Source of the DNA: a virus
Lineage: Duplodnaviria; Heunggongvirae; Uroviricota; Caudoviricetes
Virus record (IMG/VR): IMGVR_UViG_3300029229_000093
Direction: 5' to 3' (one strand)
DNA: 4,296 bases
Made by a program: the position numbers and the translations under genes. The notes under the pieces were generated by a model. It did no database searches, was not told the DNA's origin, and worked only from the letters and a program-made list of their open reading frames with translations. The first letter of the stretch is position 1. The number at the start of each line of letters is the position of its first letter. Below are positions 25-4,296 of this stretch, piece by piece.

Positions 25-54
25 TTGAAGTTCTGGACGGTGCCGGAATAGAAT
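25..54 (+). promoter_or_regulatory. Candidate sigma70 promoter upstream of the first ORF
   Basis: TTGAAG (25-30), 18-bp spacer, TAGAAT (49-54). Sequence match only. Confidence 0.25.
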
Positions 55-1786: not shown

Positions 1787-2160
1787 ATGACTGAACGCAT
1801 AGAATTTGTTTTGCCTTNNNNNNNNNNNCGCCAACGGTGAACACTTACTGGCGACGTCGTGGCAGCACATATTTTGTATCAAAAGTCGGTGAGCGTTATC
1901 GCCGTGATGTGGCGCTAATTGTTCGCCAGCAGCGGCTGAAATTAAACCTGTCCGGAAGGCTGGCGATAAAGATTATTGCAGAGCCACCGGATAAGCGCCG
2001 TCGTGACCTGGACAATATCCTGAAGGCACCACTGGATGCGCTGACGCATGCCGGACTACTTATAGACGACGAGCAGTTTGATGAAATCAATATTGTGCGC
2101 GGTCAGCTCGTTCCTGGTGGGCGGCTGGGGATAAAAATCACAGAACTGGAGTGCGCATGA
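1787..2160 (+). CDS. rusA: RusA-family Holliday-junction resolvase, interrupted by an N-run
   Basis: ATG at 1787 abuts the upstream stop (TAAATG) and encodes MTERIEFVLP before the N-run. After the gap the frame reads ...PTVNTYWRRRG...DKRRRDLDNILKAPLDALTHAGLLIDDEQ..., matching the RusA RRRDLDN catalytic region. Stop TGA 2158-2160. The two halves are out of frame across 11 Ns, so the true gap length is probably not 11. Confidence 0.7.
1818..1828. other. Run of 11 ambiguous bases (assembly gap or masked bases)
   Basis: Literal n characters in the sequence, inside the rusA reading frame. Confidence 0.99.
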
Positions 2161-2846
2161 ATAACCAGTATTTACAGTTTGTGCGTGAGCAGCTCATTAT
2201 CGCCACCGCTGATTTGAGTGGGGCAACAAAAGGTCAGCTTGAAGCCTGGCAGGAGAATGCCATGTTCGATACAGGGCGTTACAGGCGTAAAAAAATCCGG
2301 TACCGCGATGAAGTGACCGGAAAAATGATAACGCGGGATAATCCACCAATCCCGGGAAAACAATCGCTGGCGAAGGGGACGTCAATTCCTCTGGTCAGTC
2401 AGGTTGCTTTTTCTACATCATCATGGCGGCGGGCTGTTTTGTCTCTTGAAGAACATCATAAAGCCTGGTTGTTGTGGTGTTACGGCGAGAGTATTTGTTG
2501 GGAATATCAGATCGCGATAACACAGTGGGCGTGGAATGAATTTAATACTCAATCCGGTACCAGAAAAATTGCAGGGAAAACGCAGGAACGCCTGAAAAAA
2601 TTAATCTGGCTGGCTGCACAGGATGTCAGGAGATGGGTTATAGGACATGATATCTACCAGCAACAGGAGCTTGCCCGTCTGTGTGGGATTAAGCCTGACA
2701 ACTGGAGCCACAATTATGTGAGCTACTGGCGTGAAATACTCGACATTTTTATGAACCTCGATACCGAATCTCTGATTTGCACTGTGAAAAGGAGATCTCA
2801 ACAAAAAGCGGCATTTTTGCAGCGAGATATTGCAAAAGTCAATTAG
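2157..2846 (+). CDS. Putative late-gene antitermination protein Q (lambdoid Q family, 229 aa)
   Basis: ATG at 2157 overlaps the rusA stop (ATGA, 2157-2160), with SD GGAG (2147-2150). Stop TAG 2844-2846. Position directly after rusA and directly before a promoter plus short-leader terminator is the classic lambdoid Q-pR'-tR' arrangement. The ORF track also offers an upstream GTG at 2151. Family assignment is by synteny and size, not a verified alignment. Confidence 0.6.
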   Translation: MNNQYLQFVREQLIIATADLSGATKGQLEAWQENAMFDTGRYRRKKIRYRDEVTGKMITRDNPPIPGKQSLAKGTSIPLVSQVAFSTSSWRRAVLSLEEHHKAWLLWCYGESICWEYQIAITQWAWNEFNTQSGTRKIAGKTQERLKKLIWLAAQDVRRWVIGHDIYQQQELARLCGIKPDNWSHNYVSYWREILDIFMNLDTESLICTVKRRSQQKAAFLQRDIAKVN

Positions 2847-2858
2847 ATAGCATATATT
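2830..2858 (+). promoter_or_regulatory. pR'-like late promoter (sigma70 -35/-10)
   Basis: TTGCAA (2830-2835), 17-bp spacer, TATATT (2853-2858). Overlaps the 3' end of the Q ORF. Predicted start near 2865. Confidence 0.45.
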
Positions 2859-2869
2859 TTATGTAAATG

Positions 2870-2878
2870 TGATATATT
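2870..2878 (+). promoter_or_regulatory. Second -10-like element (TGaTATATT): candidate promoter-proximal pause / Q-engagement site, or alternative extended -10 promoter
   Basis: TG (2870-2871) plus TATATT (2873-2878), 20 bp downstream of the first TATATT. Lambdoid late promoters use a -10-like repeat in the early transcribed region for sigma-dependent pausing. Confidence 0.3.
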
Positions 2879-2893
2879 GCTGTAAAGTGTATA

Positions 2894-2920
2894 AACCCGC
2901 TCAAATGTGCGGGTTTTTTG
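2894..2920 (+). terminator. Rho-independent terminator (tR'-like) ending a short late leader RNA
   Basis: Stem AACCCGC (2894-2900) pairs with GCGGGTT (2909-2915) around an 8-nt loop TCAAATGT, followed by a T6 run (2914-2919). Confidence 0.75.
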
Positions 2921-2949
2921 CTTAACTCTGTGGACCTTTTTATCTGTAG

Positions 2950-2975
2950 TTGTAATATATGGATATTGTTACAAT
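2950..2975 (+). promoter_or_regulatory. Inverted repeat TTGTAA/TTACAA overlapping a candidate extended -10 promoter (TGtTACAAT) just upstream of the kinase gene
   Basis: TTGTAA (2950-2955) and TTACAA (2969-2974) are reverse complements separated by 13 bp. TG (2967-2968) plus TACAAT (2970-2975) forms an extended -10, about 7 bp before the kinase SD. Confidence 0.3.
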
Positions 2976-2992
2976 TTAGGTCGGTGAGCTTA

Positions 2993-3757
2993 ATGGAAGA
3001 ACAGCACGGTAATTACTTTATAAAACGAATTCAGTTGATTGGAAGAGGGGCATTTGGCTTTGTTGAACACGTTAAGGTTTACAACCTCAATAAAGGTGAA
3101 TGCGGGGATTATGCTAGAAAGGTTTTAGCACCCGAAAAACCAGAGCTTTTGGCGCAAATAGAGCAGTTTAGAAGGCGTTTTAAAAGGGAGGTTGTGTATC
3201 AATCACATTGCGTACATAGCAATATTGTTCCTATTTATTTGTGCGATTTGTTTGTTGAGAATCCATGGTTCATTATGGATAAAGCAGAATGTGATCTTGA
3301 GCACGAAATAACGAACAACCTTCTTACAACAGATCAAAAAATTTCAATAGTGAAAATGGTATTAGATGGTGTAGCTTACATCCATGCCAAAGGCTATTTA
3401 CACAGAGATATAAAACCCTTTAATGTTTTGCGATTTAGCGACGGAACATACAAGGTGTCTGATTTTGGTCTGGTAAAAGATACGAATCCCGAAGGGGATA
3501 CCACTAAATTGACCGAGATCGGTACCCGTATGGGAAGTACAAGATATATGGCTCCCGAGATTTTATATAATGCAGAGTATTCAGTTAAGACTGATGTTTA
3601 TGCTGTGGGACGGTTAATTGAAGACTTAAATTTAGATGATAAAAAAATAAAGCCTATCATAGCTAAGTGCACAAGGATGGATAAAGATGATAGATATCAG
3701 ACAATAGATGATGTGGCGTTTGATTTTGCGCATTCTTTTTTAAGGAGTGAGTCATGA
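2993..3757 (+). CDS. Eukaryotic-like (Hanks-type) Ser/Thr protein kinase, catalytic domain only (254 aa)
   Basis: Start ATG at 2993 with SD GGTGAG (2983-2988). Read directly: Gly-rich loop IGRGAFGFV (3038-3064), VAIK-type lysine in YARKV (K at 3119-3121), catalytic loop HRDIKPFN (3401-), DFG (3461-3469), APE (3551-3559), subdomain IX Asp in KTDVYAVG. Stop TGA 3755-3757. The longer ORF-track start at 2918 is rejected because it overlaps the terminator. Confidence 0.85.
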   Translation: MEEQHGNYFIKRIQLIGRGAFGFVEHVKVYNLNKGECGDYARKVLAPEKPELLAQIEQFRRRFKREVVYQSHCVHSNIVPIYLCDLFVENPWFIMDKAECDLEHEITNNLLTTDQKISIVKMVLDGVAYIHAKGYLHRDIKPFNVLRFSDGTYKVSDFGLVKDTNPEGDTTKLTEIGTRMGSTRYMAPEILYNAEYSVKTDVYAVGRLIEDLNLDDKKIKPIIAKCTRMDKDDRYQTIDDVAFDFAHSFLRSES

Positions 3758-4296
3758 TTCAGCTGATAGCGACTTCATCATTCTCGTATCCAAAAGAACC
3801 AGGTAGGGTCAACGAAGATTCATTGCTTCCTCCAAAAATTGTAGGAGACGGCGTCTTATTTGCCGTAGCTGATGGTGTAGGTTCATACTCTGGTGCCAGT
3901 TATGCTTCATCCATGGCAATCGCTGAACTTTCAGCATTGACAAGTTTATCTTTTGATGCAGTTCCGAATGTATTTGCTGAAGTTAAGCGAAAAGTTATGT
4001 CGTTAGCTGAAGTTAATGATGAGTTCGATAAAGCTGCTACTACACTTACCTTTTGTTATGTTTGTGATAGCGGAATTATTATTGGTCATATTGGTGATTG
4101 TCGCTTGTATTGCATTGGAGAAAAGAAAGCATATCAATTGACGAAGGACGATACCAGACATCAGATGTTAATTGATCAGAATATTTTTAAACCCAGAGAT
4201 TTGAAGAATAAACCGGGAAAAAATATCTTAACGACTGCCATAGCCTCAAATGTTGATATGGAATACGACTGTGATTTTATCCCGTGGAAAGATTTG
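3754..4296 (+). CDS. PP2C-family (PPM) Ser/Thr protein phosphatase, 5' portion (181 codons, continues past window end)
   Basis: ATG at 3754 overlaps the kinase stop (ATGA), with SD AAGGAG (3742-3747). PP2C motifs read directly: RVNED (motif 1), FAVADGVGS (DGxGG-like, D40/G41 at 3871-3876), TTLT, IGHIGDCRLY (GDSR-like, 4093-4098), LTKDDTRH (LTxDH-like), NILTTAIAS. No stop before 4296. Confidence 0.85.
   Translation, partial: MIQLIATSSFSYPKEPGRVNEDSLLPPKIVGDGVLFAVADGVGSYSGASYASSMAIAELSALTSLSFDAVPNVFAEVKRKVMSLAEVNDEFDKAATTLTFCYVCDSGIIIGHIGDCRLYCIGEKKAYQLTKDDTRHQMLIDQNIFKPRDLKNKPGKNILTTAIASNVDMEYDCDFIPWKDL

What the first reader, a model, noticed from the sequence alone, without database searches (positions are those of the whole stretch)
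2940..2992. Possible independent promoter and operator-like inverted repeat between the terminator and the kinase
TTGTAA (2950-2955) and TTACAA (2969-2974) form an inverted repeat overlapping an extended -10 (TGtTACAAT, 2967-2975) immediately before the kinase SD. This could allow repressible expression in the lysogen, independent of Q. That would fit a defence or lysogenic-conversion role, in addition to late expression.
Basis: seen in the sequence. Interest (0 to 1): 0.5.

Follow-up and report, generated by a model that had tools for sequence, protein, structure and literature searches.

The report
Own promoter of a prophage kinase-phosphatase cassette

Summary
They are not more than chance gives, with P about 0.15 for any such repeat in this AT-rich 72-nt spacer.

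They are not conserved. The TG is TC in the other common E. coli allele.

About 35 diverged copies of the same kinase-PP2C cassette point to a different element. It has two blocks with sigma-70 geometry at a fixed distance from the kinase ATG:
- -35 TGGACC, 2931-2936
- 16-bp spacer
- -10 TAATAT, 2953-2958
- predicted start A2965, giving a 28-nt leader

The cassette usually also has a terminator after the phosphatase gene. It sits at several classic accessory-gene positions in prophages: after Q, after the spanin genes, after CI and after N. Here it sits just downstream of a phage-82-type late promoter, pause element and terminator.

An independent promoter is therefore plausible. A repressor operator is unsupported. 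No transcript data were available.

The parts
2157..2846 (+). Phage-82-type antiterminator Q gene (229 aa).
   Evidence: Pfam PF06323 Phage_antiter_Q, E 3e-84. PHROG 304, E 6e-103. RefSeq annotates it the same way in strain 118UI. The phage 434 record labels its homologue 'Q82-like'.
2830..2858 (+). Late promoter pR': -35 TTGCAA at 2830-2835, 17-bp spacer, -10 TATATT at 2853-2858. The inferred start is A2865.
   Evidence: Listed by the consensus scan. Second-best sigma-70 score on the + strand of the window (10.7 bits). Both hexamers are conserved in phage 434. The +1 follows from the published phage 82 layout, where +15 to +17 is GCC (PMC5001585). The E24377A allele has TATTTTGCC there and the window has TATATTGCT.
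2870..2878 (+). Sigma-70-dependent pause element of pR' (TGaTATATT, an extended -10-like repeat at +6 to +14). The expected pause at +25/+26 is 2889/2890.
   Evidence: PMC5001585 says the phage 82 pause element carries an extended -10 sequence, is engaged at a transcript length of 21 nt, and pauses RNA polymerase at +25/+26. It is one of the four + strand TGNTANNNT matches in the window.
2893..2920 (+). Intrinsic terminator tR': an 8-bp G+C-rich stem followed by a T run. It ends the short pR' transcript (about 52-56 nt) in the lysogen.
   Evidence: Terminator scan. RNA fold of 2865-2925: -15.9 kcal/mol, z = -2.73.
2931..2936 (+). Proposed -35 hexamer of the cassette promoter (TGGACC), 16 bp upstream of the -10.
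   Evidence: In the anchored alignment of 12 effectively independent cassettes, T at -35 is found in 9 of 12 and G at -33 in 10 of 12 (P 4e-6). The flanking columns are at random identity (0.283 against 0.279 expected). L116 has TAGACC and L007 has TGGATC.
2951..2958 (+). Proposed -10 region of the cassette promoter: TG followed by TAATAT (hexamer at 2953-2958).
   Evidence: GTA[AG]NNT lies 35-43 nt upstream of the ATG in 16 of 35 non-redundant cassettes, against 1.0 expected. A generic sigma-70 matrix puts its best hit there in 12 of 34 loci, against 3.3 expected (P 5e-5). The window site scores 7.5 bits, rank 12 of 4250 positions.
2965..2965 (+). Predicted transcription start of the cassette promoter (A), giving a 28-nt leader.
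   Evidence: The position 12 nt downstream of the first T of the -10 is A or C in all 16 aligned cassettes, A in 10 of them. This is an inference. No transcript data were available.
2950..2955 (+). It overlaps the proposed -10 region (-15 to -10).
   Evidence: Its conservation is explained by the -10 block.
2967..2975 (+). In the proposed reading this is +3 to +11 of the leader.
   Evidence: Scores 7.7 bits, rank 10. The TG is lost in the E24377A allele. In L116 the segment has diverged (CCTACATT, with a 2-nt deletion just upstream at 2960-2961). L007, L010 and L013 have no counterpart.
2983..2987 (+). Shine-Dalgarno sequence GGTGA, 5 nt before the ATG.
   Evidence: The block GTCGGTG is conserved across the E. 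coli alleles and in the Raoultella and metagenome cassettes. The Yersinia cassette has GGCGGTG.
2993..3757 (+). Stand-alone Ser/Thr protein kinase (254 aa).
   Evidence: Pfam Pkinase, E 1.5e-33. PADLOC kinase models mad6 and PD-T4-6, E 6e-40 to 1e-34. PHROG 2361. Catalytic residues K43, HRD, N144, DFG and APE are invariant among 25 homologues.
3754..4296 (+). PP2C-family phosphatase gene, cut off by the window end. Its ATG overlaps the kinase stop codon (ATGA).
   Evidence: Pfam PP2C_2, E 3.6e-12. Full length is 247 aa in E24377A. The pair recurs in nearly all related loci.

Best explanation
**What it is**
Positions 2921-2992 are the promoter and leader of a self-contained two-gene cassette, kinase followed by PP2C phosphatase. 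The cassette is inserted directly after the late control region of a lambdoid prophage. That control region consists of a phage-82-type Q gene, pR', the pause element and tR'.

**The promoter**
It is a modest sigma-70 promoter:
- -35 TGGACC at 2931-2936
- 16-bp spacer
- -10 TAATAT at 2953-2958, preceded by TG
- predicted start A2965
- a 28-nt leader carrying the Shine-Dalgarno GGTGA

**How it would work**
- In the lysogen, pR' transcripts stop at tR', so this promoter alone would give low, Q-independent expression of both genes. The two genes are translationally coupled through an ATGA overlap.
- After induction, Q-modified polymerase from pR' reads through tR', the cassette and the cassette's own terminator into the late genes. 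The cassette is then also expressed late.

The inverted repeat and the TGtTACAAT are incidental features of one allele group. Their left half is the real -10 region and their right half lies in the leader.

**Shown and inferred**
- Shown: sequence conservation, geometry, mosaic boundary and gene contexts.
- Inferred: promoter activity, the start site, expression in the lysogen, and any defence role of the kinase-phosphatase pair.
For: 1. **Fixed-position block.** A conserved block tGTAAatT lies 35-43 nt upstream of the ATG in 16 of 35 non-redundant cassettes, against about 1 expected from shuffles.
2. **Sigma-70 geometry.** Anchored on that block, T-35 (9/12) and G-33 (10/12, P 4e-6) appear at the 17-bp spacing sigma-70 uses, and A or C at +1 (12/12). 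The flanks are at random identity (0.283 against 0.279).
3. **Independent model.** A generic sigma-70 matrix not fitted to these data puts its best hit at the same distance from the ATG in 12 of 34 loci, against 3.3 expected (P 5e-5).
4. **Mosaic boundary at tR'.** Against E24377A, Q and pR' are 85-87% identical, while 2921-2992 is 97.2% and the kinase 97.3%. Against L116, Q is 53%, 2921-2992 is 78% and the kinase 87%.
5. **The region travels with the kinase.** Related Q82-type Q/pR' regions occur in 1523 E. coli genomes, but the similarity stops at or before 2901. Positions 2921-2992 are found only next to the kinase, in 49 genomes.
6. **Many different positions.** The cassette sits after three unrelated Q families, after spanin or LysC genes, after CI repressors and after N. 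Only a host-recognised signal carried by the cassette itself can be common to all of these.
7. **Own terminator.** Most cassettes (23 of 34 scanned) have an intrinsic terminator after the PP2C stop codon, 19 of them starting within 40 nt. The E24377A example folds at -22.3 kcal/mol.
Against: - No transcript start or reporter data exist for any of these loci. I found no paper on this cassette.
- The window's own hexamers are weak, 4 of 6 each with a 16-bp spacer. The simple consensus scan did not list the site.
- The GTA[AG]NNT pattern was defined after looking at the data, and only about half of the cassettes carry it.
- Extra conserved positions (T-18, G-16, T-14, G-13) are not in register with the canonical extended -10 TG at -15/-14. 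They are unexplained and could mark a protein-binding site instead.
- All copies share ancestry, so the counts are not fully independent.
Confidence: 0.6

Rival explanations
1. An extended -10 promoter (TGtTACAAT, 2967-2975) starts transcription at about 2982. A repressor binds the TTGTAA-N13-TTACAA dyad and controls it.
For: - The -10 matches the consensus at 5 of 6 positions and has a TGn in this allele. It scores 7.7 bits, rank 10 of 4250.
- A perfect 6-nt dyad involving the region around it has a local P of about 0.03.
- Both arms are kept in the two E. coli alleles.
Against: - The TG is TC in 19 of 49 E. coli genomes.
- L116 has diverged across this segment: 10 of its 16 differences from the window within 2921-2992 fall in 2960-2977.
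- L007, L010, L013 and more distant cassettes have no counterpart. No other cassette has a dyad (P > 0.25 in all).
- There is no -35.
- A start near 2982 would put the Shine-Dalgarno sequence at the very 5' end of the mRNA.
- The cassette encodes no DNA-binding protein.
- The prophage holds no second copy of the dyad.
- It shows no likeness to the prophage's immunity-region repeats or to the Fur, LexA or CRP consensus.
- Any 6-nt repeat in this spacer has P = 0.15.
Confidence: 0.1
2. There is no functional promoter in 2921-2992. The kinase and phosphatase are pure late genes, made only when Q lets pR' transcription pass tR', as for stx2. The conserved blocks serve something else in the read-through RNA or DNA.
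For: - The cassette is co-oriented with pR', with no terminator between tR' and the kinase.
- In seven loci it sits directly after a Q gene.
- The window's hexamers are weak.
Against: - The same two-block element sits upstream of cassettes placed after spanin genes, N or other genes, where no Q-controlled terminator precedes it.
- Its T-N-G / 17 bp / TA-NNN-T / +1 A pattern is what sigma-70 reads.
- The RNA of this region has no significant structure and no Rfam match reaches threshold.
Confidence: 0.18
3. The conserved block around -18 to -7 (T-N-G-N-TGTAAatT) is mainly the binding site of a host factor, or a promoter for a polymerase form other than plain sigma-70 holoenzyme. Expression would then be conditional rather than constitutive.
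For: T-18 (11/12), G-16 (8/12), T-14 (10/12) and G-13 are conserved but out of register with the canonical extended -10.
Against: - No dyad or direct repeat is conserved.
- No consensus I tried matches.
- The -35 and -10 spacing and the +1 are fully accounted for by sigma-70.
Confidence: 0.1

Closest known systems
Prophage 'morons' with their own promoter and terminator (Hendrix/Juhala concept; lambda bor and lom, HK97 examples). Cited from my own knowledge.
   Same: - Extra genes with no role in lytic growth.
- Inserted between genes that are adjacent in related phages.
- Carry a promoter-like element upstream and an intrinsic terminator downstream.
- Found at the classic positions: after Q/tR', after Rz, after cI.
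   Different: Promoter activity here is inferred from conservation only. This cassette lies inside the late operon and is co-oriented with it, so it should also be read from pR' after induction.
stx genes of Shiga-toxin phages, in the same Q-tR'-to-lysis slot (PMC7547250).
   Same: - Accessory genes placed directly downstream of pR'/tR' and upstream of the lysis genes.
- Late expression by Q antitermination.
- The 118UI and E24377A prophages even share the tRNA genes and the nanS-like esterase (SASA family) gene typical of Stx phages.
   Different: The cargo is a kinase-phosphatase pair, not a toxin. The own promoter of stx1 is controlled by Fur (my own knowledge), whereas no Fur box is found here.
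Phage 82 late control region: Q82, pR', sigma-dependent pause at +25, terminator (PMC5001585).
   Same: - PF06323 Q protein.
- Promoter TTGCAA-17-TATATT.
- Extended -10-like pause element at +6 to +14.
- GC(C/T) at +15 to +17.
- Terminator about 30 nt further downstream.
   Different: This is the neighbour of the finding, not the finding itself. It does explain the other TGNTANNNT match, at 2870.
KKP kinase-kinase-phosphatase module of Pf and other prophages (PMC11341870).
   Same: A prophage-borne Ser/Thr kinase plus PP2C phosphatase. In KKP this acts as a phosphorylation-based toxin-antitoxin and defence module and is widespread in temperate phages.
   Different: KKP has three genes in the order PP2C-kinase-kinase, with larger kinases, one of them fused to a cold-shock domain (CSD). 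Here there are two genes in the order kinase-PP2C, and the kinase is a bare 254-aa domain. No function has been tested for this pair.
PD-T4-6 and Stk2 single-kinase defence systems (PADLOC models; PMC9519451).
   Same: The kinase matches the PD-T4-6 models (E 1e-34) and the Stk2 model (E 1e-27) over the kinase domain. PD-T4-6 protected when cloned with its native promoter.
   Different: The matches cover only the generic kinase domain of longer profiles. Those systems have no phosphatase partner.

Membership tests
Sigma-70 promoter (proposed site, -10 at 2953-2958) | A -10 hexamer with T-12, A-11 and T-7. | tested here: met
   TAATAT at 2953-2958. The same three positions are kept in 16 cassettes at the same distance from the ATG.
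Sigma-70 promoter (proposed site, -10 at 2953-2958) | A -35 hexamer 16-18 bp upstream. | tested here: met
   TGGACC (4 of 6) at 16 bp. T-35 and G-33 are conserved at 17 bp in the other cassettes.
Sigma-70 promoter (proposed site, -10 at 2953-2958) | Transcription starts 6-8 nt downstream of the -10, with sigma-70 holoenzyme. | not testable with these tools
   No transcript data. Only a conserved A or C at the predicted +1.
   TGtTACAAT is present in this window.
   The TG is TC in the E24377A allele. L116 has diverged across the segment. L007, L010 and L013 have no counterpart.
Repressor operator | Dyad symmetry overlapping the promoter. | tested here: met
   A 6/6 dyad (8/10 when extended), spanning -15 to +10 of the proposed promoter. 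A dyad of this size is expected by chance in 15% of shuffles.
Repressor operator | The dyad is conserved, or co-varies, in related loci. | tested here: not met
   None of the cassettes outside the two close E. coli alleles has a dyad better than shuffles.
Repressor operator | A cognate DNA-binding protein, or further copies of the site, in the element. | tested here: not met
   The cassette proteins are a kinase and a PP2C only. The site occurs once per locus. The immunity-region repeats are different.
Moron (autonomous accessory transcription unit in a prophage) | Inserted between genes that are adjacent in related phages, and found at various positions. | tested here: met
   Found after Q (three families), spanin or LysC, CI, and N. 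There is a mosaic boundary at tR'. In 1523 genomes the related Q/pR' region has no similarity past 2901.
Moron (autonomous accessory transcription unit in a prophage) | Own terminator downstream. | tested here: met
   A hairpin plus T run after the PP2C stop codon in 23 of 34 cassettes scanned, 19 of them starting within 40 nt. E24377A: L004 4866-4893. This lies outside the window.
Moron (autonomous accessory transcription unit in a prophage) | Expressed in the lysogen. | not testable with these tools
   No expression data found.
KKP module | Three genes in the order PP2C-kinase-kinase, with larger kinases, one fused to a cold-shock domain (CSD). | tested here: not met
   Two genes in the order kinase-PP2C. 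The kinase is 254 aa and has only the Pkinase domain (definition from PMC11341870).
Phage-82-type late control region (neighbouring feature) | PF06323 Q protein, pR', an extended -10-like pause element at about +6 to +14, and a terminator. | tested here: met

The most novel reading that the evidence does not exclude
The kinase-PP2C pair may be an undescribed two-gene, phosphorylation-based toxin-antitoxin or anti-phage module that travels between temperate phages as a complete unit, with a conserved promoter and terminator.

Its promoter carries extra conserved bases (T-18, G-16, T-14, G-13). These could make expression conditional on a host factor rather than constitutive.
Probability: 0.3. 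Interest if true: 0.55.

Novelty: new member of a known kind. Interest (0 to 1): 0.3.

Why it matters
If the promoter works as proposed, the kinase and phosphatase are made in the uninduced lysogen. That is the condition for any role in superinfection exclusion or lysogenic conversion, and it affects roughly 1% of complete E. coli genomes, among them strains 55989, E24377A and VR50.

It also gives exact bases to mutate and an exact 5' end to look for, in a cassette that recurs across many Gammaproteobacterial prophages.

For the scan itself, the lesson is that a good-looking extended -10 with a dyad in AT-rich spacer DNA can be chance. In this case comparison of diverged copies moved the likely promoter by 17 bp.

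Tried and rejected
- **The prophage's own operators.** The repressor/YdaS intergenic region of the 118UI prophage has different repeats.
- **Further copies of the dyad.** TTGTAA-N8-18-TTACAA across 190 loci: one copy per kinase locus, none elsewhere in the prophage.
- **RNA structure.** The fold of 2921-3010 is no better than shuffles. Rfam gives only sub-threshold hits driven by the terminator hairpin.
- **Species-wide genome scan.** The same query on viral contigs gave the useful set.
- **"Cassettes after cI lack a promoter".** I dropped this idea. L126 has a TATATT at nearly the same distance from the ATG, so absence cannot be claimed.
- **Literature.** Searches for this cassette or its protein accessions found nothing specific.
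- **Minus-strand reading.** The reverse complement of the conserved block (TTTACA) reads as a -35, but it has no matching -10, so I rejected it (inspection).

Full report
**Setting**

The window is the nin/Q end of a lambdoid prophage of E. coli. The part I compared (2700-3300) is identical to strains 118UI and VR50 and 99.7% identical to 55989. The genes in order are:
- DUF968, 731-1786
- RusA, 1837-2160
- a PF06323 antiterminator Q, 2157-2846
- a stand-alone Ser/Thr kinase, 2993-3757
- the start of a PP2C phosphatase, 3754 onward

Downstream in complete genomes lie a DNA methyltransferase (or a remnant of one), tRNA genes, a nanS-like esterase (SASA family) gene and the lysis genes. This is the slot that stx genes occupy in Shiga-toxin phages.

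**The late control region upstream of the finding**

The Q protein is of the phage 82 type; the phage 434 record calls its homologue "Q82-like". The best promoter-like site near it is TTGCAA (2830-2835), 17 bp, TATATT (2853-2858).

The published phage 82 layout has an extended -10-like pause element, GCC at +15 to +17, and a pause at +25/+26 (PMC5001585). It fits exactly:
- The E24377A allele reads TGaTATTTTGCC and the window reads TGaTATATTGCT.
- So +1 is A2865, the pause element is 2870-2878, and the pause falls at 2889/2890.
- The terminator at 2893-2920 ends a transcript of about 52-56 nt.

This accounts for one of the window's four + strand TGNTANNNT matches. It also shows that the finding lies just outside the Q-controlled switch.

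**Check of the observation**

None of it exceeds chance:
- There are 22 inverted repeats of 6 nt or more in the 251 nt around it.
- 15% of dinucleotide shuffles of the 72-nt spacer hold a perfect 6-nt repeat with a 3-20 nt gap.
- TGNTANNNT occurs 7 times, against 8.9 expected.
- TACAAT has no -35 at a usable distance.
- A start about 7 nt downstream of it (around 2982) would leave the Shine-Dalgarno GGTGA (2983-2987) at the extreme 5' end of the mRNA.

**Alleles in E. coli**

The spacer occurs only next to this kinase, in 49 of 5426 complete genomes, as two alleles. The second allele (19 genomes, including E24377A) differs at two positions in the spacer.

A third allele from IMG/VR (L116, kinase 93% identical) differs from the window at 16 positions within 2921-2992. 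Positions 2933-2959 carry two changes and 2978-2992 one.

**Diverged copies of the cassette**

Protein searches and context look-ups gave about 35 non-redundant loci with a kinase 36-76% identical to this one. In nearly all of them a PP2C gene follows.

The cassette sits at several positions:
- after Q proteins of three unrelated Pfam families (PF06323, PF06530, PF03589)
- after Rz-like spanin or LysC genes
- after CI-type repressors
- after N
- after KilA-N, Bro-N and other genes

Lined up on the start codon, the upstream regions share nothing alignable except two things. One is the ribosome-binding block. The other is a block tGTAAatT, 35-43 nt upstream of the ATG, in 16 of 35 loci where shuffles give about 1.

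Anchored on that block:
- Columns 23 and 21 nt upstream of its first T are T (9/12) and G (10/12, P 4e-6).
- The column 12 nt downstream is A or C in all.
- Flanking columns are at random identity (0.283 against 0.279).

That is the sigma-70 pattern: T-35, G-33, a 17-bp spacer, T-12 A-11 ... T-7, and +1.

A generic sigma-70 matrix built from textbook frequencies, not from these data, puts its best hit at the same distance from the ATG in 12 of 34 loci, against 3.3 expected (P 5e-5).

In the window the element is TGGACC (2931-2936), 16 bp, TAATAT (2953-2958), with the predicted start at A2965.

**The spacer belongs to the cassette, not to the phage backbone**
- Against E24377A, identity jumps from 85-87% (Q, pR') to 97% (spacer, kinase).
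- Against L116, it jumps from about 50% (Q, pR') to 78-87% (spacer, kinase).
- Related Q82-type regions in 1523 genomes lose similarity at or before 2901.
- Most cassettes have an intrinsic terminator after the PP2C stop codon: 23 of 34 scanned, 19 of them starting within 40 nt (E24377A example).

Promoter, two translationally coupled genes (ATGA overlap at 3754-3757) and terminator together make the classic autonomous accessory unit of temperate phages.

**The operator idea**
- No other cassette has a dyad at this place.
- The dyad occurs once in the prophage.
- It is unlike the repeats in the prophage's repressor/cro region and unlike common host or phage operator consensus sequences.
- The cassette encodes no DNA-binding protein.
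- As RNA the region is not unusually structured, and no Rfam family matches at threshold.

**What remains open**

The promoter is inferred, not shown. In this window its hexamers are weak.

Conserved T-18, G-16, T-14 and G-13 are unexplained by the canonical extended -10 register.

The role of the kinase-phosphatase pair is unknown. The nearest described systems are the KKP module (PMC11341870) and the single-kinase defences PD-T4-6 and Stk2. This pair differs from them in gene number, gene order and domain content.

**Verdict**

This is an ordinary but cleanly resolved case. The operator is not supported.

Noticed in passing
window 2993-4296; loci L007, L010, L013, L116, L122-L171: The kinase-PP2C pair is a widespread two-gene cassette in Gammaproteobacterial prophages. 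It is found after Q (three unrelated families), after spanin or LysC genes, after CI repressors and after N. I found no paper that describes it.
   Followed up: partly
aligned cassettes; window 2947-2952: Positions -18 (T), -16 (G), -14 (T) and -13 (G) upstream of the proposed -10 are conserved. They are one base out of register with the canonical extended -10 TG.
   Followed up: partly
window 2857-2877 and 2940-2960: A 21-nt direct repeat, 76% identical. The first copy spans the pR' start and the beginning of its pause element. The second spans the spacer and -10 of the proposed kinase promoter. It may be chance in AT-rich DNA.
   Followed up: no
window 3640-3647; L001: The kinase gene holds a run of A's. 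In strain 118UI one A is missing, which shifts the frame and truncates the kinase to 218 aa. Strain 510016 has a shortened, disrupted kinase gene.
   Followed up: partly
L002 (strain SY033) 4270 onward; window 2968/2969: An IS1 element sits directly after window position 2968, inside the proposed leader. It is accompanied by a deletion of 2969-3531, and an IS3 element interrupts Q.
   Followed up: partly
window 25-54: The highest-scoring sigma-70-like site on the + strand of the window (TTGAAG, 18 bp, TAGAAT; 11.7 bits). It lies upstream of the small ORF at 133-384, which RefSeq calls Rem in E24377A.
   Followed up: no
window 1819-1829: A run of 11 N interrupts the 5' part of the RusA gene. 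The listed ORF start at 1837 is therefore probably not the true start. An ATG at 1788 overlaps the DUF968 stop codon.
   Followed up: no
L004 4866-4893 (outside the window): A strong intrinsic terminator follows the PP2C gene of the E24377A allele. The late operon therefore needs Q-modified polymerase to get past the cassette as well as past tR'.
   Followed up: partly
window 3754-3757: The kinase stop codon and the PP2C start codon overlap (ATGA). This suggests translational coupling, as in many toxin-antitoxin pairs.
   Followed up: no
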